A DNA stretch of 64,000 nt, from the NCBI GenBank assembly GCA_937864035.1, contig CALMIO010000011.1, positions 13,957-77,956 of the forward strand, written 5' to 3'. The translations under genes and the position numbers were made by a program. Below the pieces are notes generated by a model that saw only the letters and a list, made by a program, of their open reading frames with translations, had not been told where the DNA came from and did no database searches. This document shows positions 3,813 through 61,882 of the stretch, one piece after another. Within the stretch, counting starts at the first letter, position 1; every line of letters starts with the position of its first letter. This DNA comes from an uncultured Pseudomonadota bacterium. Its GTDB lineage: Bacteria; Bdellovibrionota_C; UBA2361; CALMIO01.

Positions 3813-3866
3813 GAGGATAAAAACCAACAACAAACAGCAATATAATAATTTTGTTGTTTATAAAAA

Positions 3867-3900
3867 AAGAGCCAAGCTTTTTAAGGCTTGGCTCTTTTTG
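3867..3900. terminator. Bidirectional rho-independent terminator
   Basis: 10-bp stem (A)GAGCCAAGC...GCTTGGCTC(T) with an 8-nt loop, followed by TTTTTG on the plus strand and preceded by AAAAAAA (a T-run on the minus strand). Serves lpxB on plus and the minus-strand micro-ORF. Confidence 0.6.
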
Positions 3901-3965
3901 TGTGAAACTTGTGTAAAGAGGATTACAACAATCTAACTCCTCTTTACCACCAACTGAGAACGCTA

Positions 3966-4037
3966 CTATCTTTTTTTCTTCTTAGCAGCTTTCTTGGTGG
4001 ATTTTTTGGCTTTACTAGCCTTTTTCTTTGTTGCCAT
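3966..4037 (-). CDS. Micro-ORF encoding a 23-aa poly-lysine peptide (MATKKKASKAKKSTKKAAKKKKR)
   Basis: Not in the ORF track because it is under 60 aa. Perfect RBS GGAG 7 nt upstream of the ATG (GGAGAAAAAAATG), mixed Lys codons (AAA/AAG), TAG stop, and the bidirectional terminator directly downstream. An in-frame upstream ATG would add MEKK. Confidence 0.4.
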   Translation of the reverse strand: MATKKKASKAKKSTKKAAKKKKR

Positions 4038-4156
4038 TTTTTTCTCCATCAAATTAAAAAAGCAAAAGCGATTGAAAAATTTTTGCGACTCTCCTTCCTA
4101 AATTTTTAGTTGCAGAGTTTTTTGTCAATCACTGCTTTTATAAAGTTTATTAACAT

Positions 4157-4175
4157 ACTTGCGCTTTGCGCAAGT
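4157..4175. promoter_or_regulatory. 19-bp perfect palindrome ACTTGCGCTTTGCGCAAGT, candidate transcription-factor operator
   Basis: The exact reverse complement equals itself. Sits in the AT-rich 410-bp spacer between the micro-ORF start (4037, minus) and the eno start (4451). Confidence 0.3.
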
Positions 4176-4450
4176 ACACAATTCAACTTTGCCACTGGAA
4201 AGAAAAGTTTGCAATATCTTTTTTCAAAGATGTTATTTTTTTTAAACTCCTCTGATCAGACAATCAACAACTCTCTCTTGCCAATAGAATACAGAACACT
4301 CCAAAACGATCTGAGTGTTCTTATTATTCTCTATCGGAGAACGCAACAGTTGACTTTAGCTATTTATAGCTAAGAGAGTATGTTGTATGCTTGCGTTAAA
4401 AGAGAACGTCTCTTTTTTAGAAACATTTAGATCTATACTATATATATTAT

Positions 4451-8344: not shown

Positions 8345-8560
8345 AAAGAGCTCGCCCTCTGAAAAAGTAGATTTTTTAAGAAAAAATTTCTTTTAAAAAG
8401 TGGTAGATTTTAAAATTTTAAGAAGGTCCCTCGCAAGACATAAACAAGGTTGTAAGCGGCGCCAGCAAAAAGAGTGTTCATGAATCTGTCAAATTTTCCT
8501 TTAAGATAATTTTACAAGCCTACAGCGCCGCTTAAGATATCAGATAACAACTTCAACTTT
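8345..8560 (-). repeat. Intergenic mosaic repeat, copy D (inverted relative to copies A and B)
   Basis: Its reverse complement aligns with 15205-15290 (AAAGTTGAAGYTGTTATCT...TTAAAATTTTAAAATCTACCRCTTTTTAA). The 8440-8520 segment (GCGGCGCCAGCAAAAAGAG.GTTCAT.AATCTGTCAA.TTTTCC.TTAAGATAATTTT) is near-identical to 35825-35895 and related to 61615-61640. Confidence 0.6.
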
Positions 8561-8601
8561 AGGGAGTTCTCTAATAAAAATTCTCCCTATTTTTCTTTTT
8601 T
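8561..8601 (+). terminator. Rho-independent terminator (AGGGAG-16 nt loop-CTCCCT followed by ATTTTTCTTTTTT)
   Basis: 6-bp GC-rich stem with a T-run. About 220 nt downstream of the ompA-family gene and just past repeat copy D. Confidence 0.5.
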
Positions 8602-8854
8602 AACATTGGATTAAACACACAAAACCTCTCTGCCGCTTGATATCCTTTGTACTCAAGAAAAACAAGAGCTCCTAGCGTAAAGCTGTAACGCTCTCCAAAC
8701 TTCCTTGAAAATTTCTCTCAATCTATTTTTTTTGCTAACTTCACTAGCCGATGAGCCGCCTTGACTATTTTTCTCTTAATTCTCCTTCAAACAACAACCG
8801 CTGTCGACACTTCGAACTCTTTTGATTTTATATATCCGATAATTTCTTGCCTTT

Positions 8855-8921
8855 TTTGTAACTCTTCTTGAGCTTTATAATAACCTTTCACAGAGAACTA
8901 AAAAATAGCTCTTCTGCTAGC
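8855..8921 (+). repeat. Short direct-orientation fragment of the same repeat family (tail module)
   Basis: CTCTTCTTGAGCTTTATAATAACCTTTCACAGAGAACT matches the tail of copy C (reverse complement of 35590-35640: CTCTTCTTGAAAAAAAAATACCATTTTTCACAGAGAGCT) and the copy A tail (15440-15470). Confidence 0.4.
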
Positions 8922-13516: not shown

Positions 13517-14839
13517 ATGCAATTAGCCAGTATGAAAAATGAATCATTTCAAGACTACAAAATTAAAGATATCTCTCTAGCAGATTGGGGAAGAAAAGAG
13601 ATTGAGATCGCGGAAAAAGAGATGCCCGGCCTGATGGCGCTACGAGCCGAGTATGGAGCAAGCAAGCCGCTAGCCGGAGCTCGCATAGCCGGCTCTCTCC
13701 ACATGACTATTCAAACCGCCGTTCTGATAGAAACTTTAACGGCGTTGGGAGCCGAAGTTCGTTGGTCAAGTTGTAATATATTCTCGACTCAAGACCACGC
13801 CGCCGCCGCTATCGCCGCCGCGGGAATTCCGGTATTCGCTTGGAAAGGAGAAACTTTAGAAGAGTACGATTGGTGCTTGGAGCAAACTTTAAAATTCGCG
13901 GGCCGCGGTCCAAACATGATTATTGATGATGGCGGCGATCTGACAGCTCTCGTTCAGCAAAAATTTCCAAACTTGCTTAAGGAAATAAGAGGCATATCGG
14001 AAGAAACTACGACTGGAGTATCTCGCCTATATCGCCTAAGCGCCGAAGGCAAGTTAACGGTGCCATGCTTTAACGTTAACGATTCGGTCACCAAATCTAA
14101 ATTTGATAATCTTTATGGTTGCCGAGAATCTCTGGCTGATGGCCTAAAGCGAGCTCTTGATGTCATGATCGCTGGCAAAATGGTGCTTGTGGCTGGTTAT
14201 GGCGATGTTGGCAAAGGCTGTGCTCATTCAATGCGAAGTTATGGAGCTCGCGTTGTAATCACCGAAATCGATCCAATTAACGCCTTACAAGCGGCAATGA
14301 ATGGCTTTGAGGTAAAAACCGTGGAAGATGCCGTTAGTGATGTTGACATATTCGTAACCGCTACGGGCAACACAAATATCATCACATCCAAGCATTTTGA
14401 AAAGATGAAAGATCAGGCGATTGTTTGCAATATCGGGCACTTTGACAACGAGATCGATGTAGCTTGGTTGGAGAAAAATCCGACAATCAAGGAAAAGAAC
14501 ATTAAACCTCAAGTTGATAAATTTATCTTTCCAGATGGGCGGGAGATTATCGTTCTTGCTCGCGGCAGGTTAGTCAATCTATCCTGCGCTAATGGCCATC
14601 CCAGTTTCGTTATGTCAACTTCATTTACCAATCAGGTACTAGCACAAATTGAACTTTTCAATAATCACGGAAAATACAAACCGGGCGTATATATTTTACC
14701 TAAAATTCTTGATGAGAAGGTCGCTCGGCTTCATCTTGATAAATTGGGAGTTAAACTTACAAAGCTGACTAAAGAGCAGGCAGAATACATAGGCGTTAAA
14801 GTAGAAGGACCCTATAAACCAGAACATTATCGTTATTAA
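13517..14839 (+). CDS. ahcY: Adenosylhomocysteinase (S-adenosyl-L-homocysteine hydrolase)
   Basis: 440 aa. Typical AhcY N-terminus ([26 protein letters not shown]) and NAD-binding domain ([17 protein letters not shown]). Confidence 0.95.
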
Positions 14840-14899
14840 AAGACTACTAGCTCTTCATAAAAAAGCAATTGAGCAAAAAAGCGGGTAAATTTTGGATAG

Positions 14900-15475
14900 C
14901 GCCACAAAAGCTTTCTGGTAAAGTTAAGGAGCAACGATACTAGATGCATATTTTAAAAAGTTATCCGTGCAAATTTGTTAGAAAGGCGAATAGTAGTTCA
15001 AAAAAAGGTAAAAGATAAGAGGATATAATGCAAGGAAGTACCCCAAAATAGTATAAAACCTTGCAAAAGTAATTAAGCAAAAGAGCACGAAGCGCCAACA
15101 AGAGTTGCTGTTTGAAAGAGAGTTACAGTTTACATGAGCCGCATGTTGAAGCTATTGCCAACAGAGGGCATAACGCAACAGAAAAATTTCGCGTGATTAG
15201 AGCAAACTTTAAAGTTGAAGCTGTTATCTCATAAATTAAGTGGCGCTATATTTAAAATTTTAAAATCTACCGCTTTTTAAACTAACTTTTAGTTCCTATT
15301 GGGGAAGTCTCGTCTGAAAAACAAATTTTTTAGCAAATTTGCCAGAAACTTTGCCCTGTTAATAAAATTTCACCTTTTCTGCTCTCTGCTTAGAAAAGAA
15401 AAATAGATTTTCTACCGGTTTTCTGCTGGGAAAATCACCTTTTTCAAGGATAGCTAAAAAATATATCTCCTAATA
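14900..15475 (+). repeat. Intergenic mosaic repeat, copy A (longest)
   Basis: A 666-bp ORF-free spacer. 14985-15130 aligns with 61445-61610, including the shared GGATATAATGCAAGGAAGT with its TATAAT box at 15024-15029. 15290-15410 aligns with 61700-61810 and with the reverse complement of 35640-35770 (GGGAAGTCTCGTCTG...TTTGCCAGAAACTTTGCC...TTAATAAAA.TT.C...CTCTGCTTAGAAAA). Confidence 0.65.
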
Positions 15476-15505: not shown

Positions 15506-16423
15506 TTAAGCAACTAATTTAAACTGACTAGAAAAGGTCGAGTCTCTCTGTTTTTTGGCTTTTGTAGAATTTTTAAAGAACACTCGATTTTTGGCAGATA
15601 ATTCTTGATTGATCGCTTTAAGTAGAGAATCACTCGGAACTTCAACCGCTCTTAGAAGAAACTCCCGCAAAGATGTTAAAACTTCCCTTTTAACCCTAGA
15701 CAGGTGACACCTACTATAGCCAAGCTCCTGAGCAACTTTATTAAGCTGTTCTCCACAAAGATAGATCCTTTTAATGACACCATGTTCGATTGGACCTAAC
15801 GATTCTCCATGCTTAACAGCCAACTGATAAAGCTCTTTTTGCTCCAAACGTTCTTCAGGATTTTTAATCTCCTCGTTAATCAAAGCAGACAAAGATTCCT
15901 CGCTACTAGATCGAGGTCTTCTATAATAATTGGGGTCATCGCTCATATTAGCGCCATCTTCAAGCTCAGTAATGTTAATAAACTGAGACTTAACAGCCTC
16001 CTCAATCGCGCGAATTAAATGACCTTTTAAATGATAATATAAAAACGTCACAAAACTACTGCCATAGGCTGGATTAAATCTCTTTGCCGCCTCGCAAAGA
16101 GCTATATGAACCACACTCTCCAATTCGAAACGATCTAAGCGAGCATTCCATTTTCGCAACATACTGGCTCCCAGCTTATAACCTTTCTCTCTATATTTTA
16201 AAATTAACTTCTGATACGGAAGATTATCCTTCAGAATAATTGTTTTTTCTTCAATTTTGTTTTTGAACTTTTTACGAAACACGCCTTTATTGGTAACAGC
16301 TCCTTTTTTAGAAGGCAAATTTCCGGCTATTTGAATAAATCTGTTTTTCTTGACTTTTGTCTGCTCTGCTACTTTCATAAATACTTCGGTTATCTGATAA
16401 AATTTGACCGAAAAACTAAGCAA
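15506..16423 (-). CDS. RNA polymerase sigma factor, minimal sigma-70 family (sigma-28/FliA-like, regions 2 and 4 only) with lysine-rich N-terminal extension
   Basis: Region 2 motif ALCEAAKRFNPAYGSSFVTFLYYHLKGHLIRAIEEA (compare LmkAvekFdpekGykFSTYAtwwIrqaI). Region 4.2 helix-turn-helix LNKVAQELGYSRCHLSRVKREVLTSLREFL. The true start may be an internal Met (MKVAEQ... or ...SMLRKW). Confidence 0.7.
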   Translation of the reverse strand: MLSFSVKFYQITEVFMKVAEQTKVKKNRFIQIAGNLPSKKGAVTNKGVFRKKFKNKIEEKTIILKDNLPYQKLILKYREKGYKLGASMLRKWNARLDRFELESVVHIALCEAAKRFNPAYGSSFVTFLYYHLKGHLIRAIEEAVKSQFINITELEDGANMSDDPNYYRRPRSSSEESLSALINEEIKNPEERLEQKELYQLAVKHGESLGPIEHGVIKRIYLCGEQLNKVAQELGYSRCHLSRVKREVLTSLREFLLRAVEVPSDSLLKAINQELSAKNRVFFKNSTKAKKQRDSTFSSQFKLVA

Positions 16424-35594: not shown

Positions 35595-35900
35595 AAAGCT
35601 AGCTCTCTGTGAAAAATGGTATTTTTTTTTCAAGAAGAGAGCAGGTAGAAAATGTATTTTTATTTTCTAAGCAGAGGACAGAAAGGGAGAAATTTTATTA
35701 AGAGAGTAAAATTTCTAGAAAATTTGCGTGAAAAGGTTGTTTTTTAAACCAGACTTCCCTCAATAGAAGTTAAAAATTAGTTTCTAGTTTCAAAATCTTA
35801 ACCAATCCGCCGCAGGAGGCGAGCAAGTTTGCAGGCGGCGCCAGCAAAAAGAGAGTTCATAAATCTGTCAAGTTTTCCGTTAAGATAATTTTTACCAAGC
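35595..35900 (-). repeat. Intergenic mosaic repeat, copy C (inverted), immediately 3' of the tRNA
   Basis: The reverse complement of 35640-35900 aligns end to end with 61600-61815 and with 15290-15410, and 35825-35895 aligns with 8440-8520. No ORF. Confidence 0.65.
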
Positions 35901-36238
35901 CTGAATCACCTCTCTTTCGTACCTTCTTCTCCTAATCTTCTTGCGCTATCTACTTAACTGCGACCGGTCGCGCGGTGGAGAAACGGGCTAGACTTAAATA
36001 TTTAGCAGGCGCACAACTACTATATAAACCTATATATAGCTCTATCAAACTTTCGACTCCTTGAACGTTTCAACAGTTTAAAATCTAGATTTTATTTAAG
36101 CCCGATCGATTTATACAAGAAACTCTTAATAATAATAATAATATCAACCTCTATCAAAAAGTGGCCATATCTACTACAGGTCTTCTCTAAACATTAACTT
36201 TAAGCTTTAAAAACGATAGCAACCTAATAAAAATAAAC

Positions 36239-36787
36239 ATGTCACAAAACCGTGGTTTTACCCTAATTGAACTACTGATGGTCGTTCTAATGATTGGCAT
36301 CATAACCGCTATCGCTATTTCATCATACGAAGAGTTTAGATTTAGAGCATATATTAGCAAAACACAATCTGGCTTAAATACCTTAAGAACTGGTCAAGAG
36401 GCATATTACATAGATAACAACAATTACGTTGACTGCGTCGATCAAGTTATCGATGGTAACGAAGTTGGCTCTCCAGATATGGATTTTTGCTATAACATTC
36501 TTCCGGGCGTTACAAAACTAACAAACAATTTCGCTCCTTACGGAACCTTAAGTTTTATCTGCTCAACATCTGGAGATCCATCAATCCAGGGCTACCTGTG
36601 TTCAGGAGAGGTGTTTAACGATTATTTCGCAGATAGAGAGGAACCAAGAGTACAATGCCAACTATCAAGTTTTATCGACTCGTCCATTAGCGCTTTCAAC
36701 ACCGATATTTCCTGTCGATGGCGATCCCCGCCATCGTTATTTGGAGGAGGAGGTGGTGGTGGTGGTCCAGTAACGGTCGATGAATGA
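36239..36787 (+). CDS. Type IV pilin / pseudopilin-like protein (prepilin N-terminal methylation motif) with six Cys and a C-terminal poly-Gly tract
   Basis: N-terminal MSQNRGFTLIELLMVVLMIGIITAIAISSYEEF is the class III signal peptide (G|FTLIELL). The C-terminal ...SLFGGGGGGGGPVTVDE is encoded by a (GGN)8 tract at 36744-36767. Confidence 0.8.
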   Translation: MSQNRGFTLIELLMVVLMIGIITAIAISSYEEFRFRAYISKTQSGLNTLRTGQEAYYIDNNNYVDCVDQVIDGNEVGSPDMDFCYNILPGVTKLTNNFAPYGTLSFICSTSGDPSIQGYLCSGEVFNDYFADREEPRVQCQLSSFIDSSISAFNTDISCRWRSPPSLFGGGGGGGGPVTVDE

Positions 36788-39867: not shown

Positions 39868-41685
39868 TTAATTGATGAATTTATTATCCATCTTATTTAA
39901 TAAGTTGTAGAAAATTTCGTTTGTTATTTCTGCTATGAGTTGTCTTTGGTTCTGATTAAATGGCACCCCTGCTTTTTGAGCATTATTGGCAACAGACATC
40001 AAGAAGGAGAACGCTTGTTCAACGTCGCCGTATTCTAATATCTTTAGTGCGCTCCTTAAGTTCACATCAATCGCTTCGGTATTTCCTAATCTTACAATAT
40101 GTTTAATTTCGTTTTCGTCTATTTCGATATCAGCTGTTTTAGCGTTTTCGAAAACCTTTAATAGATATTTTTGCATTTCCTCGACTTCGCCAGCCGCTGC
40201 CAAGTCTTGCGCTTGGGCTAAATTAAGAGGAATCGCATTTTTATTTGCCAGCTTAATGATACGTTGCATTCTCTCTTCTTCTGCGGAAGAGAAACGGATG
40301 CCGATTTTTTCGACGCTCCTGCGAGCCGCTAAAATGCAATCTGTTACTTCATCAAGCGCACCCAATTTTGCTAGCTGCTCGGCGCTAAACAAATTCATAG
40401 GAATTGCGTTTTTGTGCGCCAACTCAACTAATTGGTTTATTCGAGTTTTTTGCGCCTGAGTTAATTCGACTTTGGTGTCTTCAGCGACTTTCAGCATTGT
40501 CGCCACCAAACTTTCGACAAAATCAGCTTCACCACGAGGGGCGTATTCTAAAGCTCGGTTAAAATCCAAAAGAAACGCCTTTTCAAAAATACCTTTTATT
40601 GTTCTTTTTTGTTCTTCCAAAAGTTCAATCTCGGCCTTATCAGCATTTTTGTACGCCATGGCGACTAATTGCCCTGCTTGACGAGTGAAGCCGAATTTTA
40701 ATTTTTCCTCGGCTTTAGCTAAATTAACAACCAGCGCTTTAGCATGTGCCAGTTTAACAATGTCCCCCATCTCCTCGATTTTTTTAGGAGTCAGCTCGAC
40801 ACCGATTTTGCGGCAGGCTGATCTAATTTTTAACAACAACTCCTCTACTTTACCAGTATCGCCAACAGAGGCATGGCGCGACGCCAGTTCTAAAGCCATG
40901 ATAATTGCTTTCTCAAAAACACTTTTTATTTTCTCTGTTTGTTTCTCAGTAAGTTTAATTTCGGCTTCTTGGGAATTTCTGTAAACTTGAGCTATGAACG
41001 ACGCCGCTTCATCAACAAGACCTTTTTTCGCTTCCTCTTCAGCCTTAGCTAAGTTAACACAAATTGCGTTGAGATTTGCCAGTTTGACAATCAGTTTCAG
41101 ATTTTTTTCCTGTTCATCAGAGAGCTTAACTTTAGTTTCCTCGCAGTTAAATTCAACCAGTGATATACAACGCTTTGTCAAACAGACGTCGCCGATTGCC
41201 GCCGCTTTTTCTGCCTCAATCAACTTGACAGAAATCTCATTAATCATTGCAACCCTAATCATCTCTCTTATGGATTCCTTGTCAATTTTAACTCCTGCTT
41301 TTCGAGCTCGCGCAAGAGCCTCTCTTACATAAAACCGTACTTCATTGGCATCCCCTGATAACGCTTTTAATGAGGCTTTCTTTAAATGATTTGCTATTTC
41401 AATCTCGGCTCGAGTAGGTATTGTCGGCTGATTGCCTTTGGTAATGTTTTGTCGCGAGTTGTCAACGCGGGCACCCAGCGGATTAGTAGAGCGATCGCAA
41501 TCATTTTTGACAAAAGCTCCTTCCATTGGCGCTGGCGGAAGAGTGACTGCAAACACCGTCGAGGCTAAGAGCTTTAATAAAAAATTTTTTTGCTCATTAT
41601 TAGTTTGGAGTTTATTAGGCAACGGCGCGGGAATTTGCCTTTGCCTTTTGAACACCTCGTTTTTTAGAGGATCAGTTTTTGGCAT
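39868..41685 (-). CDS. Secreted alpha-helical tandem-repeat protein, paralog 1 (about 57-aa repeats of the form L-T-x-E-Q-x3-I...LA-h-x-NAI-x-VNL-x-KA-x-E...NA-x-KA)
   Basis: The ORF track starts at 41769, but those 28 codons overlap the conserved promoter (-35 TTGATT to -10 TATTGT). The start is probably the Met at 41685 (MPKTDP...), followed by a hydrophobic signal-like segment (KNFLLKLLASTVFAVTLPPAP). At least 7 internal repeats. Paralogous to the next gene. Confidence 0.65.
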   Translation of the reverse strand: MPKTDPLKNEVFKRQRQIPAPLPNKLQTNNEQKNFLLKLLASTVFAVTLPPAPMEGAFVKNDCDRSTNPLGARVDNSRQNITKGNQPTIPTRAEIEIANHLKKASLKALSGDANEVRFYVREALARARKAGVKIDKESIREMIRVAMINEISVKLIEAEKAAAIGDVCLTKRCISLVEFNCEETKVKLSDEQEKNLKLIVKLANLNAICVNLAKAEEEAKKGLVDEAASFIAQVYRNSQEAEIKLTEKQTEKIKSVFEKAIIMALELASRHASVGDTGKVEELLLKIRSACRKIGVELTPKKIEEMGDIVKLAHAKALVVNLAKAEEKLKFGFTRQAGQLVAMAYKNADKAEIELLEEQKRTIKGIFEKAFLLDFNRALEYAPRGEADFVESLVATMLKVAEDTKVELTQAQKTRINQLVELAHKNAIPMNLFSAEQLAKLGALDEVTDCILAARRSVEKIGIRFSSAEEERMQRIIKLANKNAIPLNLAQAQDLAAAGEVEEMQKYLLKVFENAKTADIEIDENEIKHIVRLGNTEAIDVNLRSALKILEYGDVEQAFSFLMSVANNAQKAGVPFNQNQRQLIAEITNEIFYNLLNKMDNKFIN

Positions 41686-41740
41686 AAACCTTATGACACC
41701 AACGCGATCAAAACTTTCGCGAAAAGCCATTCTTAATACA

Positions 41741-41769
41741 ACAATACCACCAAAACAATCTTTAATCAA
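41741..41769 (-). promoter_or_regulatory. Sigma-70-like promoter of repeat-protein gene 1 (TTGATT-17 nt-TATTGT)
   Basis: The -35/-10 pair and spacer are conserved at the DNA level with the region upstream of the paralog (43845-43874), while the reading frames there differ by 1 nt. This conservation pattern fits regulatory DNA rather than coding sequence. Confidence 0.35.
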
Positions 41770-41977: not shown

Positions 41978-43702
41978 TTAATATATATTAAGAAGCTTGT
42001 TGATTGTTTCCACTATTTTTTCTTGTTTCTCATTAAACTTGATTTCTACTTTTTCGGCATTTTTGCGGGCAAAAGACAAGAATAACATCGCACCTTGAAC
42101 ATCGCCTTTTTTCGCCCTTTCTAATGCTTTACTTAAATTAACATCAACCCCATTGGTATGTGCTAATATCAATATAGCTTCGATTTCTTTTTGCAGTTTA
42201 TTATCTGGCTCCAGATTAGCTTTTTTAAGCTTGTCGAGAATTGTTGATGTGATTATTTCAACCATACCCACATCACCAGCTTCTGCTAGCTCTTTCGCTT
42301 TAGCCAAGTTGCGAGGAATCGCTTTTTCATGTGCCAGCCGAATGATGTTTTCCATTAGTTTTTCTTCTTCCTTAGTCGGCTTTAGATTGGCTTTTTTAAA
42401 ATTCTCGCGAGCATTTGATATAAACATCTCCGCCATACTGGTCACACCAGCTTCCGCTGATTCTTTCGCTTCAGCTAAGTTGCGAGCAATAGCATTAAGG
42501 TTCGCTAGCCTAATAAATTCCTTCATATCCTTCTTTGTCTCCTGAGCAAGCTCTAATTTGGCTCTTTGTGCATTACTTTCAACCTGAGACACTAACATCT
42601 CTACCCAATAATGCTCGCCGCGAGAGGCGTGCTCCGAAGCTTTTGTAAGAACTATATCAACCACCCCATAAAAAACCTTTTTTATCTTATCTTTTTGCTC
42701 CGAAGTAAGTACAACCTCTGCCTTCTCGGCATGATCGTAAGCAATGGATATGAATATCCCTATTTCATCAATATAACCAGATTTTAATTTTTCCTCAGCT
42801 TTTCCCAAATTAACGTCAATCGCGTTGCGGTGTGCAAGTTTAAGATAATTTTGAATTGTCTTTTTTTGTTCCAAACTAAACTCAATCCCAGTTTGTTGAA
42901 AACAATTCTTAATTTTCGACACCAATATCTCTACTCTATAAGCGTCACCCAAAGAAGCATGTTGAAATACTTCCTTTAAGGCAATATCAACCGCCTCTTC
43001 AAAAACAGTTTTTATTGTCTTTTTTTGTTCCTCAGTGAGCTCAACCTGAGCTTTTTTCGCATTGCGATAAACTGTGGCAATCAATCCACCTACACTATCA
43101 ACCTCGCCATCTTTGGCCAGTTGCTGAGCTTTATATAAATTAACATCAATCGCGTTTTTATTTGCTTCTTGAGGGATTATTTTTGCCAGCTCTTGTTGTT
43201 CTTCAGTTAGCTCAATTCCCTTTTTTTGAGCATTTTCAAGAGTTTCAGATAACAAAATCTCCGCTTCTGCAGCGCGTCCAAACGCGGCTAGCCTAATTGC
43301 CTTATCTAAATTATTAAGAACTCGGTTGACCTTCGCGAGCTTAATAAGTTCTTTTATATCTTTTTTTTGTTCATCGGTAATTTTAATGTCCAGTTGTTGA
43401 GCCTCATCCAGAGCTTTTTGTACACAAAACTCTACTCCATCAACATCACCAAGGAACGCTCTTTTCGACACCTCCTTTAAATGAGCTATTATCTTTAGCT
43501 CAGCTTTAGTTGGTACTCTTAAATTGTCGTCATTTGGAATGACTTCTTTGGCTCTTGAGTCAAGAAGGGCGACTAATATATTACGAGCGCCATCGTAATC
43601 TTGAGGTTTAAAGTTTTGCTTAACAATATCTTCAGCCGATGGGAGCGCCAAGACTGCCGTGGCTAGAAATCCCCAAAGACGGCTCTTTCCATTTGGCGAC
43701 AT
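41978..43702 (-). CDS. Secreted alpha-helical tandem-repeat protein, paralog 2
   Basis: The Met at 43702 gives a canonical Sec signal peptide (MSPNGKSRLWGFLATAVLALPSA|ED). The ORF track starts at an upstream GTG (43786). Repeats such as IKLAKVNRVLNNLDKAIRLAAFG..., IPQEANKNAIDVNLYKAQQLAKDGEV..., IRLAHEKAIPRNLAKAKELAEAGDV... Confidence 0.65.
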   Translation of the reverse strand: MSPNGKSRLWGFLATAVLALPSAEDIVKQNFKPQDYDGARNILVALLDSRAKEVIPNDDNLRVPTKAELKIIAHLKEVSKRAFLGDVDGVEFCVQKALDEAQQLDIKITDEQKKDIKELIKLAKVNRVLNNLDKAIRLAAFGRAAEAEILLSETLENAQKKGIELTEEQQELAKIIPQEANKNAIDVNLYKAQQLAKDGEVDSVGGLIATVYRNAKKAQVELTEEQKKTIKTVFEEAVDIALKEVFQHASLGDAYRVEILVSKIKNCFQQTGIEFSLEQKKTIQNYLKLAHRNAIDVNLGKAEEKLKSGYIDEIGIFISIAYDHAEKAEVVLTSEQKDKIKKVFYGVVDIVLTKASEHASRGEHYWVEMLVSQVESNAQRAKLELAQETKKDMKEFIRLANLNAIARNLAEAKESAEAGVTSMAEMFISNARENFKKANLKPTKEEEKLMENIIRLAHEKAIPRNLAKAKELAEAGDVGMVEIITSTILDKLKKANLEPDNKLQKEIEAILILAHTNGVDVNLSKALERAKKGDVQGAMLFLSFARKNAEKVEIKFNEKQEKIVETINKLLNIY

Positions 43703-43844
43703 TTGGTTCGCCGACGGCAGGTTTTGAAAAGATTGATTGCTTACTGTTGATTGGTTATTATTATTAATTTCTATCACATCTATCACAAATTGATTTATGA
43801 CGCCTATGCGATCAAAACTTCCACGAAAAAGTAATCTTTAAGAA

Positions 43845-54874: not shown

Positions 54875-55564
54875 TACTGAGCTAAATTTGAATATAAAAA
54901 AATTAGGAAAATGAGAGCGTGCTTTTCTAATAGATTAGTTCAGGGCTTAGCATTAGGTTGCTTCTGATTTTATCGTGTTACAAAGGGGTACTCACCTAAT
55001 CTGACAAGAGATCCTCTTATACAAATTACTTGATTACGTTAAAAAAAATTTACAAGATCAACTTGATTAACTTTGATTTTTTAGCTAAATTTTGACGTAA
55101 TAATTTTCTTCTAACGCAACCTACATGACAAACACTTACATGACAGATTTAGGTTTCAACAAAACATACAAGAACTCAAAGAACTAATAGATCAAATCCT
55201 ACCATCGCCAATTGACAGAATGAGCCGCCAAGAGCTCATAGCCATGATAGAACAAATCCATAATGCAGGAAGAAACACAAACAATCCGCCTCTGCCATCC
55301 GCCAAGGCCTACAACATAATGACTGACTGAGGGTCGCAACGCCTTATACACACCGCACAGAAAAGGCATACTAAAGATGATAAACTCTCTTCTGGAAGGT
55401 GATAAGAAACGGAGTTATTAAAAAAAACATAAAAAATAACCTCGGTTTTAATACTTGACGCTTCAGCGGTTTAATGGGTAAAACTATATTAAAGCAAGTT
55501 TTTTTTATAACATTTTAGCTCACTTTAAGCCGCACCAAAAAAGTGTTTCTCAAAAGATCCCTCT

Positions 55565-61424: not shown

Positions 61425-61815
61425 CTAGTTCTCCGTGAAAAGTTATTAGAAAGCTCAAGGAGAGTTGCGAAAAGGGATAAGAAATGTCCGGATATAATGC
61501 AAGGAAGTTGTCTGAAAGAGTATAAAACTTGCAAAAAAAATAAAGCCAAAAGAGTCGGAGATGCCTACAGGGATTGTTGTTTAAAAGAGAGTTAGAAAAA
61601 ACAGCAAGTCTTTACTGGCGCCGCTTGCAACCTTGCTCGTGTCCCGCGGCGAGCTGATTAAAATTTTAAATTACCTCTTTTTAAAGTAATTTTTTACTCA
61701 TATTGGGAATGTCTCGTCTCGAAAATAACTTTTTCACGGAATTTGCTAGAAACTTTGCCATGTTAATAAAACTTTACATTTTCAGTTCTCTGCTTAGAAA
61801 ATAAAAACATATTTC
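61425..61815 (+). repeat. Intergenic mosaic repeat, copy B
   Basis: Aligns with copy A over about 61445-61610 (TATAAT at 61493-61498) and 61700-61810, and with the reverse complement of copy C over about 61600-61815. No ORF. Confidence 0.65.
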
Positions 61816-61882
61816 TTAGAAGCAATAAGTATAATTCAAGCTCAAAGTCTCAAATCGGCACAACTTAACTCAGCAATAAAAA

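What the first reader, a model, noticed from the sequence alone, without database searches (positions are those of the whole stretch)
14900..15475. Family of mosaic non-coding repeats fills four long intergenic spacers (8.3-8.9 kb, 14.9-15.5 kb, 35.6-35.9 kb, 61.4-61.8 kb)
Coding density in this window is high, yet four spacers of 400-670 bp carry clearly related sequence with no conserved ORF.

- Copies A (14900-15475, plus) and B (61425-61815, plus) share a 5' module (GGATATAATGCAAGGAAGT...TATAAAAC(C)TTGCAAAA...GTTGTTTAAAAGAGAGTTA) and a 3' module (GGGAAGTCTCGTCTG...TTTGC.AGAAACTTTGCC.TGTTAATAAAA.TT...CTCTGCTTAGAAAA).
- Copy C (35595-35900) carries the 3' module plus a GGCGCCGC..TGCAA.CTTGCTCG module in the opposite orientation.
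- Copy D (8345-8560 and 8855-8921) carries pieces in both orientations.

The modules are shuffled between loci, which makes the family mosaic. Three of the four copies sit between convergent gene ends, and one abuts a tRNA 3' end. This pattern fits either an undescribed small-RNA gene family with its own TATAAT promoter, or a miniature non-autonomous mobile or recombination-prone element. I cannot match it to any RNA family I know (tmRNA, 6S and RNase P were considered).
Basis: seen in the sequence. Interest (0 to 1): 0.75.

Follow-up and report, generated by a model that had tools for sequence, protein, structure and literature searches.

The report
Decaying MITE-like intergenic repeat family
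Four gene-free gaps in the genome of an uncultured Oligoflexia bacterium hold worn-down copies of one non-coding repeat of about 0.3-0.6 kb with inverted end sequences; it is most likely a small parasitic mobile element, not a new RNA gene, so the kind is ordinary although this family is undescribed.

Summary
The repeat family is real. BLASTN links the four spacers at E 1e-14 to 1e-38 (65-90% identity), and profile searches find no fifth copy in the window.

The "shuffled mosaic" description is wrong. All copies share one module order (TIR-M1-X-Y-Z-M2-M3-TIR) and differ only by deletions and insertions, and copy D lies entirely in one orientation.

I found a ~17-nt terminal motif, TAGYTCTCYGTGAAAA, in inverted orientation at the homology boundaries. 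Both ends carry it in A and D, one end in B and C. The window has 11 matches against 3.0 expected.

- Elements occupy 3 of 8 convergent spacers against 1 of 47 others (p=0.008). They expand spacers that are otherwise 11-165 bp to 530-666 bp.
- They are absent from the two nearest relatives examined.
- There is no Rfam match, no sigma-70-type promoter at the TATAAT box, no terminator, no intact conserved ORF and no significant conserved fold.

Best reading (confidence ~0.6): decayed copies of a non-autonomous inverted-repeat element, like a MITE or a BOX element. No unambiguous target duplication or transposase was seen, and the rest of the genome could not be searched.

A residual hint of RNA-level pairing keeps an RNA role at ~0.1-0.25. 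This is a new member of a known kind, of low interest.

The parts
14848..15456 (+). Copy A, the most complete. Layout: outer terminal-motif copy plus a partial M1b-like duplicate (14848-14957); 5' terminal repeat (14958-14974); M1 (14958-15125, with TATAAT at 15024-15029 and hairpin GCAAGG...CCTTGC at 15030-15064); short X (15126-15195); Y (15196-15250); M3 (15252-15456). It lacks Z and M2.
   Evidence: BLASTN. nhmmer M1 E 1.6e-48 and M3 E 2e-65. Partial 5' duplicate: 7 of 200 shuffles reach its score; X_A against X_D: 2 of 200.
15440..15456 (-). 3' terminal inverted repeat of copy A. Read inward it is TAGCTATCCTTGAAAAA.
   Evidence: Motif search, 2 mismatches. Inverted repeat 14848-14865 / 15439-15456, 18 nt, 78%. 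End alignment.
61426..61818 (+). Copy B. Layout: 5' terminal repeat 61426-61442 (TAGTTCTCCGTGAAAAG); M1 61426-61601 (TATAAT 61493-61498, hairpin 61499-61532); M2 61611-61655; M3 61658-61818. It lacks X, Y, Z and the last ~45 nt, including the 3' terminal repeat.
   Evidence: 0 mismatches. M1 E 3e-53; the M3 match stops at model position 167 of 214.
35600..35904 (-). Copy C, inverted. Its 3' terminal repeat is at 35600-35616 (TAGCTCTCTGTGAAAAA read inward on the + strand), 14 nt after tRNA-Met. M3 is 35600-35783, M2 about 35790-35848, Z 35849-35904. There is no recognisable M1, X or Y; 35905-36238 is unrelated.
   Evidence: (0 mismatches). C's 5' part against M1 is not significant (19-190 of 200 shuffles reach the score).
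8350..8900 (-). Copy D, inverted. Layout: 5' terminal repeat 8900-8884 (TAGTTCTCTGTGAAAGG); M1 without the hairpin 8900-8769; long X 8768-8576; Y 8575-8521; Z 8521-8470; M2 8469-8425; first ~40 nt of M3 8421-8381; then a deletion of the M3 core; then the last ~40 nt with a degenerate 3' terminal repeat 8385-8350.
   Evidence: 1 mismatch. D end against C end: 0 of 200 shuffles reach the score.
15309..15352 (+). Internal stretch of M3 in copy A that is complementary to the 5' terminal arm. The homologous stretch in B is 61703-61749.
   Evidence: RNAduplex -24.0 kcal/mol (A) and -22.6 kcal/mol (B), against -16 +/- 2.7 for shuffled arms (1 of 60 and 2 of 60 shuffles as good). Inverted repeat 14969-14984 / 15327-15342, 16 nt, 88%.
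15299..15406 (+). Candidate 35-codon reading frame inside M3 of copy A (TTG start, no Shine-Dalgarno). The B counterpart is 61703-61804 (33 codons). In C it is broken by two 1-nt insertions and a stop. Listed as tested, not as a gene.
   Evidence: Translations. Substitutions by codon position 8/2/8, 7/3/9 and 13/3/6. The six-frame query found no protein in 5.8 billion.

Best explanation
The four spacers hold old, partly deleted copies of one non-coding, AT-rich repeat unit. The ancestral unit was about 0.7 kb and the surviving copies are 305-609 bp. The unit is bounded by imperfect ~17-25-nt terminal inverted repeats (TAGYTCTCYGTGAAAA...).

**Most likely mechanism.** It is a non-autonomous inverted-repeat transposable element (a large MITE, or a modular interspersed repeat like pneumococcal BOX). 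A transposase encoded elsewhere in the genome recognised the terminal repeats and moved it. Copies persisted where insertion does no harm, namely downstream of genes in convergent spacers and next to a tRNA. They have since decayed by internal deletion, small insertions and a partial duplication, which produces the module presence/absence pattern.

**Shown:**
- homology between the copies;
- collinear module order;
- terminal inverted repeats at the homology boundaries;
- bias towards convergent spacers;
- absence of a known RNA family, promoter, terminator or intact conserved ORF.

**Inferred:**
- transposition itself;
- the trans-acting transposase;
- a TA target duplication.

Because every copy lies downstream of a co-oriented gene, read-through transcripts probably contain it. 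Such transcripts may fold through the inverted arms, a side effect known for BOX, ERIC and Correia elements.
For: - **Homology.** Four dispersed copies with E down to 5e-38. There is no fifth copy in the window.
- **Terminal motif.**
  - It sits exactly at the homology boundaries, in inverted orientation: 14848(+), 14958(+), 15456-15441(-), 61426(+), 35600(+), 8900-8885(-).
  - The window has 11 matches with <=3 mismatches against 2.99 +/- 1.83 expected. No shuffle of 100 reaches 11.
  - A and D have both ends.
- **One module order with nested deletions**. X_A is related to X_D (2 of 200 shuffles). D keeps the 3' terminus (0 of 200 shuffles).
- **Flanks.** TA immediately precedes the G of the motif at 5 of 7 ends, three times within CTAG.
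- **Location.**
  - 3 of 8 convergent spacers carry an element against 1 of 47 others, Fisher p=0.008.
  - Convergent spacers with an element are 530-666 bp; those without are 11-165 bp.
  - Elements have 34.5-34.9% G+C against 41.6% for the window.
  - The same enrichment between convergent genes is documented for BOX, RUP, SPRITE and IS elements (PMC3049150).
- **Relatives.** The loci in the two nearest relatives (SAHH 80% identical) have no related sequence. SAHH there is followed by spacers of 28 and 287 bp.
- **No sign of a gene.**
  - No Rfam match.
  - No promoter at the TATAAT box and no terminators on the element strand.
  - Stops in all six frames.
  - No protein match for a six-frame query.
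  - Weak consensus folds.
Against: - **No clean target-site duplication.** TA is palindromic and may simply be the first two bases of the repeat. Longer flanks agree only as A or T runs (A: AAA, D: TTTTT).
- **No transposase or integrase gene** in the 64-kb window or in the 8.5-kb extension.
- **Only four copies could be examined.** The rest of the genome was out of reach.
- **B and C have only one recognisable end.**
- **Copies are old** (65-90% identical), so recent mobility cannot be shown.
- **The relatives are too distant** to provide true empty sites.
- **Hints of pairing-level constraint** that a dead transposon would not need. The 5' arm pairs best with an internal M3 stretch in both A and B, with two concerted changes. 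Forward-strand duplexes are stronger than reverse-strand ones in 4 of 5 cases.
Confidence: 0.6

Rival explanations
1. The repeats are cis-acting RNA or DNA elements kept by the host, as has been proposed for REP/BIME or ERIC elements. Transcribed as part of the 3' untranslated region of the upstream gene, the inverted arms would fold into long stem structures. These would stabilise the mRNA, stop read-through or insulate convergent genes. Their spread need not involve a dedicated transposase.
For: - Every copy begins 9-73 nt after a co-oriented stop codon or a tRNA.
- No canonical terminator is found for the flanking genes in these spacers.
- The 5' arm is complementary to M3-internal sequence in A and B: -24.0 and -22.6 kcal/mol against -16 +/- 2.7 for shuffled arms.
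- Two positions changed on both sides between A and B (my reading).
- Forward-strand duplexes are more stable than reverse-strand ones in 4 of 5 arm pairs.
Against: - In a convergent spacer, co-orientation with the adjacent gene is automatic, so it carries no information.
- Five other convergent spacers manage with 11-165 bp and no element.
- Whole-element folds are no better than shuffles (z -0.42, -0.27, -1.79, -0.66).
- C lacks the 5' arm and D lacks the internal partner, so half the copies cannot form the pairing.
- In A, four other positions of the same helix are broken.
Confidence: 0.15
2. This is an independent non-coding RNA gene family. A transcript of about 0.3-0.5 kb would start downstream of the TATAAT box in M1, with a 5' hairpin, and would function in trans.
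For: - A and B share a 19-nt identical block, GGATATAATGCAAGGAAGT, with a conserved hairpin directly after the TATAAT box.
- The family has several copies and matches no known RNA family.
Against: - No -35 hexamer at 16-18 nt; the promoter scan does not report the site.
- D has TATATA and lacks the hairpin; C lacks M1 altogether.
- No terminator.
- The consensus structures are only -4.7 and -4.2 kcal/mol, with 1 and 3 doubly changed pairs.
- A 19-nt identical run is not unusual at ~70% identity over 170 nt (my estimate, p about 0.2).
Confidence: 0.1
3. This is a type I toxin-antitoxin-like or small-protein module. M3 would encode a 33-35-residue basic/hydrophobic peptide (MGKSRLKNKFFSKFARNFALLIKFHLFCSLLRKEK in A). 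Long-range pairing of the mRNA's 5' end with the start of the reading frame and with the 3' end would keep translation off, as in hok/sok.
For: - The frame is open in A and B with a stop at nearly the same place.
- Second codon positions change least: 2-3 changes against 6-13 at the other positions.
- The 5' arm has two alternative complementary partners, one internal and overlapping the frame start, one terminal.
- Multi-copy families with degenerate members are typical of chromosomal type I loci (general knowledge).
Against: - There is no Shine-Dalgarno sequence, and the only shared start is TTG.
- C carries two frameshifts and a stop, and D has lost the region.
- My hand count for A against B gives about 5 synonymous and 13 non-synonymous changes, Ka/Ks about 0.8.
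- There is no clear transmembrane stretch.
- No antisense promoter was found.
- The six-frame query found no homologue.
Confidence: 0.04
4. These are relics of duplicated chromosomal segments or pseudogenes, that is, remains of a once-coding gene family, and not a transposable unit.
For: - A weak three-base periodicity of substitutions in M3.
- All copies are heavily decayed.
Against: - Sharp homology boundaries coincide with inverted terminal motifs.
- No protein similarity in any frame.
- M1, Z and M2 show no periodicity (p 0.23-0.96).
- The flanking genes are unrelated housekeeping genes.
Confidence: 0.05

Closest known systems
Bacterial MITEs of the TA-target type (Correia/NEMIS elements of Neisseria; IS630/Tc1-mariner-derived MITEs)
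   Same: - Non-coding, AT-rich and dispersed.
- Bounded by imperfect terminal inverted repeats of about 17-26 nt.
- A TA dinucleotide lies next to most ends.
- No transposase of its own.
- Found in intergenic DNA downstream of genes.
   Different: - Much longer: 305-609 bp, from an ancestor of ~0.7 kb, against about 100-160 bp.
- Copies are far more diverged and internally deleted.
- No sequence similarity to these elements was tested or seen.
- The TA may belong to the repeat itself.
- No partner insertion sequence has been identified.
BOX elements of Streptococcus pneumoniae (boxA-boxB(n)-boxC; PMC3049150)
   Same: - A modular unit with conserved 5' and 3' modules and optional internal modules.
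- A wide size range (67-637 bp for BOX).
- Terminal complementarity.
- Restricted to one lineage.
- Over-represented between convergent genes.
- Regarded as parasitic, slowly moving repeats that are co-transcribed with neighbouring genes.
   Different: - Unrelated sequence and host phylum.
- The internal modules here are single-copy segments that are lost or kept, not tandemly iterated boxB units.
- BOX elements fold tightly, whereas these show no significant excess folding energy.
ISL3-derived MITEs (for example in Microcystis, PMC11448079)
   Same: The terminal repeat core AGCTCTTC / AGYTCTCYG resembles the ISL3 end GGCTCTTCG at 6-7 of 9 positions.
   Different: - ISL3 elements make 8-bp direct repeats, and no 8-bp duplication is present here (4-5 of 8 matches at best).
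- No ISL3 transposase was seen.
- The resemblance is short and could be chance.
ERIC/IRU and REP/BIME repeats of enterobacteria
   Same: - Imperfect palindromic intergenic repeats in transcribed 3' regions.
- Variants are created by internal insertions and deletions.
- 'Mosaic' combinations of motifs.
   Different: - ERIC is ~127 bp and REP units are 20-40 nt.
- No REP-like short palindrome and no RAYT gene were seen here.
- The module order here is fixed, not combinatorial.
hok/sok-type (type I) toxin-antitoxin loci
   Same: - Size of about 0.4-0.6 kb and several chromosomal copies, some degenerate.
- The 5' end is complementary both to an internal segment and to the 3' end.
- There is a short reading frame near the 3' part.
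   Different: - No ribosome-binding site and no clear membrane-spanning peptide.
- No antisense promoter.
- The frame is not under detectable purifying selection.

Membership tests
MITE (non-autonomous inverted-repeat transposable element) | Several dispersed, related non-coding copies in one genome | tested here: met
   Four copies in 64 kb, E 1e-14 to 5e-38. Stops in all frames. The genome-wide count is unknown.
MITE (non-autonomous inverted-repeat transposable element) | Terminal inverted repeats at the element boundaries | tested here: met
   The motif TAGYTCTCYGTGAAAA lies at the homology boundaries in inverted orientation. Both ends carry it in A and D, one end in B and C. 11 matches against 3.0 expected.
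MITE (non-autonomous inverted-repeat transposable element) | Target-site duplication flanking each copy | tested here: inconclusive
   TA precedes 5 of 7 ends but may be part of the repeat. Longer flanks match only as A or T runs.
MITE (non-autonomous inverted-repeat transposable element) | AT-rich relative to the genome | tested here: met
   34.5-34.9% G+C against 41.6% for the window. Other intergenic DNA is 30.2%, so this is not distinctive.
MITE (non-autonomous inverted-repeat transposable element) | Highly base-paired secondary structure | tested here: not met
   Fold z-scores are -0.42, -0.27, -1.79 and -0.66. Only the arm pairings stand out.
MITE (non-autonomous inverted-repeat transposable element) | An autonomous partner with matching ends, or insertion polymorphism between strains | not testable with these tools
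   The genome is not in the searchable genome collection: its own copies were not found. The metagenome scan gave one chance hit. The other assemblies carry identical proteins and could not be read. The nearest relatives are too distant.
ISL3-derived MITE | Terminal repeats starting GGCTCTTCG | tested here: inconclusive
   6-7 of 9 positions match (AGCTCTTCA, AGYTCTCYG) (against PMC6305408 and PMC11448079).
ISL3-derived MITE | 8-bp direct target repeats | tested here: not met
   A: TTTTAAAA against AAAAAATA. D: TATTTTTT against CTTTTTTA. These are 4-5 of 8 matches, made of T or A runs only (read).
Any described RNA family (Rfam 15) | A covariance-model match at or near the gathering score | tested here: not met
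   No match in any spacer at the gathering score, at E<=10 on the whole window, or at E<=1 on each spacer alone. The one exception is a meaningless mir-929 hit of 18.5 bits (gathering score 56).
Independent sRNA gene | Own promoter and own terminator delimiting a transcript | tested here: not met
   No sigma-70-type promoter is reported at the TATAAT box, and there is no intrinsic terminator on the element strand. Other promoter types are not covered by the scan.
Independent sRNA gene | Conserved secondary structure supported by covariation | tested here: inconclusive
   The consensus folds are weak. Two concerted changes occur in one long-range helix between A and B. With only 2-3 sequences per module there is no statistical power.
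Type I toxin-antitoxin (hok/sok-like) | A short toxin reading frame with a ribosome-binding site, conserved as protein | tested here: not met
   TTG start and no Shine-Dalgarno sequence. The frame is broken in C and deleted in D. Ka/Ks is about 0.8 by hand. No homologues were found.
Type I toxin-antitoxin (hok/sok-like) | Long-range 5'-3' pairing of the mRNA | tested here: met
   The 5' arm is complementary to the 3' terminus and to an internal M3 stretch. This feature is shared with any inverted-repeat element.
REP/BIME with RAYT | 20-40-nt palindromic units in alternating orientation and a RAYT (Y1 transposase) gene | tested here: not met
   No short palindromic unit is repeated across the spacers. 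No such gene appears among the window's Pfam assignments. The rest of the genome was not seen.

The most novel reading that the evidence does not exclude
The unit is not just junk DNA but a functional transcribed RNA module specific to this Oligoflexia lineage. One form would be a ~0.4-0.6-kb structured RNA closed by a 5'-3' helix. Another would be a type-I-toxin-like locus, in which the 5' arm switches between an internal partner (overlapping a 33-35-codon basic/hydrophobic reading frame) and the 3' terminus. The concerted changes in both arms of copy A, the excess of G.U-type mismatches on the forward strand and the low rate of change at second codon positions would then be signs of selection.
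Probability: 0.1. Interest if true: 0.55.

Novelty: new member of a known kind. Interest (0 to 1): 0.27.

Why it matters
Practically, it explains four unusually long gene-free gaps in an otherwise compact stretch of housekeeping genes. It gives annotators of Oligoflexia/Bdellovibrionota genomes a repeat family to mask, so that it is not mistaken for small-RNA genes.

If the family is abundant genome-wide, it would be a marker of past transposon activity and a source of recombination and assembly breaks in this uncultured lineage.

It does not open a new mechanistic question unless the hints of RNA pairing or a small reading frame hold up with more copies.

Tried and rejected
**Searches for more copies**
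- An M3 pattern scan of 185,579 species genomes gave 12 single, unrelated hits and did not even find the window's own copies. The genome is therefore not in that collection.
- The metagenome scan gave one hit, inside a coding region, which is chance.
- The viral scans gave 0 hits and 3 isolated 18-mer hits. I did not check those three against the rest of the element.
- BLASTN of copy A against plasmids and phages found nothing.

**Attempts to reach other parts of the genome**
- A search with the lineage-specific 602-aa repeat protein, hoping for paralogues, returned only itself.
- A 3,016-residue concatenate of all six-frame translations of the four copies, hoping for spurious ORF calls in other copies, returned nothing at E<=10.
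- Exact-protein look-ups extended the window by only 8.5 kb to the right, with no copy there. Four look-ups found no record.
- Other assemblies of the same organism exist but were not returned.

**Readings rejected**
- Known RNA family.
- A sigma-70 promoter at the TATAAT box.
- Homology of C's 5' region to M1.
- Extra internal full-length copies of the terminal motif: a weight-matrix scan gives only the six terminal sites plus coding-region chance hits.
- An ISL3 origin, for lack of an 8-bp duplication.
- Uneven conservation as evidence of function: identical runs of 14 and 19 nt are not unusual at these identities (my estimate).
Full report
**Source.** The window is part of contig DAOLAZ010000002.1 (805,611 bp) of assembly GCA_035324815.1, a metagenome-assembled 'Oligoflexia bacterium'. 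Window position 1 corresponds to about record position 665,439. The adenosylhomocysteinase (SAHH) at 13532-14839 is 100% identical to P0001 from that record, and the next best hits are only about 80% identical. The same proteins occur in a second NCBI record and in Logan/ENA assemblies. The window encodes ordinary housekeeping genes: LolA, LpxB, enolase, Lnt, OmpA-like, thiolase, SAHH, the rpsB-tsf-pyrH-frr cluster, IF2, NusA, KdtA, LpxK, TolB, MurD, FtsW, AspRS and carbonic anhydrase. No transposase or integrase gene is present.

- BLASTN of the four spacers against the window links them with E-values from 1e-14 to 5e-38 and 73-90% identity. The ungapped repeat finder gives the same pairs (D4, D6, I1-I5).
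- Profile HMMs built from the three main modules recover the four places with E 1e-17 to 1e-65. Nothing else in the window scores below E 0.1.
- All six frames of every copy are full of stops.

**What the architecture really is.** I oriented all copies the same way (A and B on the plus strand, C and D on the minus strand). The matches then fall in one fixed order:
- 5' terminal repeat;
- M1, with an optional 35-nt hairpin directly after a TATAAT box;
- X;
- Y;
- Z;
- M2, a GC-rich GGCGCCGC...GCGGCG segment;
- M3;
- 3' terminal repeat.

Each copy departs from this layout by loss or gain of segments:
- A lacks Z and M2, has a short X, and has an extra, marginally significant partial duplicate of its 5' end at 14848-14957 (7 of 200 shuffles).
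- B lacks X, Y, Z and its last ~45 nt.
- C lacks everything 5' of Z. Its remaining 334 nt (35905-36238) are not significantly related to M1.
- D lacks the hairpin and the core of M3 but keeps the last ~40 nt (0 of 200 shuffles reach that score).
- X of A is a shortened version of X of D (2 of 200 shuffles).

The family is therefore collinear with nested deletions, not shuffled, and D is not in two orientations. The implied ancestor is about 0.7 kb.

**Terminal inverted repeats.** Read inward, the ends are:

| End | Sequence read inward |
|---|---|
| B left | TAGTTCTCCGTGAAAAG |
| D left | TAGTTCTCTGTGAAAGG |
| A inner left | AAGTTATCCGTGCAAAT |
| A outer left | TAGCTCTTCATAAAAAA |
| A right | TAGCTATCCTTGAAAAA |
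| C right | TAGCTCTCTGTGAAAAA |
| D right (degenerate) | GAGCTCGCCCTCTGAAAAAG |

- A search for TAGYTCTCYGTGAAAA with up to three mismatches gives 11 matches in the window against 2.99 +/- 1.83 expected, and no shuffle of 100 reaches 11. Six matches are exactly these boundary sites. The other five are three-mismatch hits inside genes.
- The repeat finder independently reports 14848-14865 / 15439-15456 as an 18-nt inverted pair.
- The module profiles cross-hit the opposite ends weakly.
- TA immediately precedes the G of the motif at five of seven ends, three times as CTAG. This fits a TA target duplication of the IS630/Tc1-mariner kind (established knowledge). Because TA is palindromic, it may equally be the tip of the repeat. 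CTAG is not rare enough in these spacers to decide the point.
- No 8-bp duplication exists. This argues against an ISL3 origin, even though the ends resemble the ISL3 terminus GGCTCTTCG at 6-7 of 9 positions.

**Where the copies sit.** From my gene list, elements occupy 3 of 8 convergent spacers and 1 of 47 other spacers (Fisher p=0.008). Convergent spacers without an element are 11, 21, 24, 29 and 165 bp. Those with one are 530, 578 and 666 bp. The elements therefore look like about 0.3-0.6 kb of extra DNA in a genome that otherwise packs convergent genes tightly. The same enrichment is documented for BOX, RUP, SPRITE and IS elements and was read there as a sign of parasitic, mobile DNA (PMC3049150). 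In two relatives (SAHH 80% identical), the SAHH gene is followed by spacers of 28 and 287 bp, and no element-like sequence occurs in 15-21 kb around it. These relatives are too distant, and their downstream genes differ, so they are not true empty sites.

**Tests of the RNA-gene reading.**
- No Rfam family matches any spacer at the gathering score, at E<=10 on the whole window, or at E<=1 on each spacer alone.
- The TATAAT box has no -35 hexamer at 16-18 nt and is not reported by the promoter scan. The only promoter-like site on the element strand shared between copies is a weak TTGCCA-18-TAAAAT inside M3, whose -10 is spoiled in B. No intrinsic terminator lies on the element strand.
- Whole-element folds are not better than dinucleotide shuffles (z -0.42 and -0.27 for B, -1.79 and -0.66 for A).
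- RNAalifold consensus structures of M3 and M1 are only -4.7 and -4.2 kcal/mol.
- Three of the four copies lack a large part of the unit, which is not what one expects of functional paralogous RNA genes.

**Tests of coding.**
- M3 contains a forward frame of 35 codons in A (15299-15406) and 33 in B (61703-61804). Second codon positions change least there (8/2/8, 7/3/9, 13/3/6).
- Against a gene: the start is TTG without a ribosome-binding site, C has two 1-nt insertions and an in-frame stop, and D has lost the region. My hand count for A against B gives about 5 synonymous and 13 non-synonymous changes (Ka/Ks near 0.8).
- The other modules show no periodicity.
- A concatenate of all six-frame translations found no protein at E<=10 among 5.8 billion.
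- I treat the frame as unsupported.

**An unexplained residue.**
- In A and B, the best duplex partner of the 5' terminal arm is a homologous internal stretch of M3 (15309-15352 and 61703-61749). The energies are -24.0 and -22.6 kcal/mol against -16 +/- 2.7 for shuffled arms (1 of 60 and 2 of 60 shuffles as good).
- Within that helix, B has AAAGTTATT paired with AATAACTTT, and A has AAATTTGTT paired with AACAAATTT. Two positions therefore changed on both sides. I estimate p about 0.03, and four other positions of the helix are broken in A.
- A also shares TATCC in both of its terminal arms, where the other copies have TCTCY.
- Forward-strand duplexes are more stable than reverse-strand ones in four of five arm pairs. 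Mismatches therefore tend to be G.U on the strand that is co-oriented with the upstream gene.
- This fits pairing in read-through transcripts, as described for BOX, ERIC and Correia elements. It could also reflect sub-family history or conversion between arms. With two to three sequences per module it cannot be settled.

**Search for more copies.** None could be obtained.
- The genome-collection scan did not find even the window's own copies, so the genome is not held there.
- The metagenome scan gave one chance hit in a gene.
- The viral, plasmid and phage searches gave no related sequence. The three isolated 18-mer hits in viral contigs were not examined further.
- Only 8.5 kb beyond the window could be read, and it has no copy.
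- Two indirect attempts to reach other parts of the genome failed.
- The genome-wide copy number, clean termini and any autonomous partner therefore remain unknown.

**Verdict.**
- The best-supported explanation (confidence about 0.6) is a lineage-specific family of decayed, non-autonomous inverted-repeat elements. They behave like large MITEs or BOX-type modular repeats: mobilised in trans in the past, tolerated downstream of genes, and probably co-transcribed with their neighbours.
- Membership in the MITE class is met for dispersed non-coding copies, terminal inverted repeats and AT-richness. It is inconclusive for target duplication, not met for strong overall folding, and untestable here for a partner transposase or insertion polymorphism.
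- Functional-RNA readings (cis-acting, trans-acting, or toxin-like) together retain roughly 0.25-0.3.
- This is a new member of a known kind, and its interest is low to moderate.

Noticed in passing
window 39868-41769 (-) and 41978-43786 (-): Two adjacent paralogous genes (633 and 602 aa) contain internal repeats spaced 159, 171, 330 and 342 nt (about 53-57 codons). They have no Pfam domain. A search of 5.8 billion proteins with the 602-aa protein returned only itself, so this is a lineage-specific repeat protein pair. Tandem Repeats Finder sees no array because the units are too diverged.
   Followed up: partly
window 3813-4450: A 638-bp spacer without a called gene lies between lpxB and enolase, as long as the element-bearing spacers but unrelated to them. 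Only sub-threshold Rfam hits fall there (Thr_leader 3861-3951 minus strand, E 0.25; sau-5971, E 6.6).
   Followed up: no
window 35905-36238: The part of spacer C that is not related to the repeat family carries a perfect 16-nt palindrome, TAAAATCTAGATTTTA (36079-36094), and a 16-nt inverted pair (35984-35999 / 36089-36104). It also has several promoter-like sites (5 found against 1.4 expected). It lies upstream of a pilin-like gene with an N-terminal methylation motif (36239-36787).
   Followed up: no
window 54875-55564: Another long gap, whose only called gene is a 56-aa ORF (window ~55199-55369, minus strand) without a Pfam hit. It shows no similarity to the repeat family.
   Followed up: no
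window 15136-15198 (inside copy A): The A-specific part of module X holds a 20-codon ATG frame (MSRMLKLLPTEGITQQKNFA) with GAGAG 11 nt upstream. It is unique to this copy, so it is probably fortuitous.
   Followed up: no
window 15506-16378 (-): The gene convergent with SAHH, next to copy A, has only weak, sub-threshold matches to sigma-70 regions 2 and 4 (E 0.009 and 0.0017). It may be a divergent sigma or anti-sigma-like regulator.
   Followed up: no
window 13517-14839: The SAHH reading frame is open for 440 codons, but the NCBI record. Both versions are held in the protein collection, yet the exact-product index knows only the 435-aa one.
   Followed up: yes
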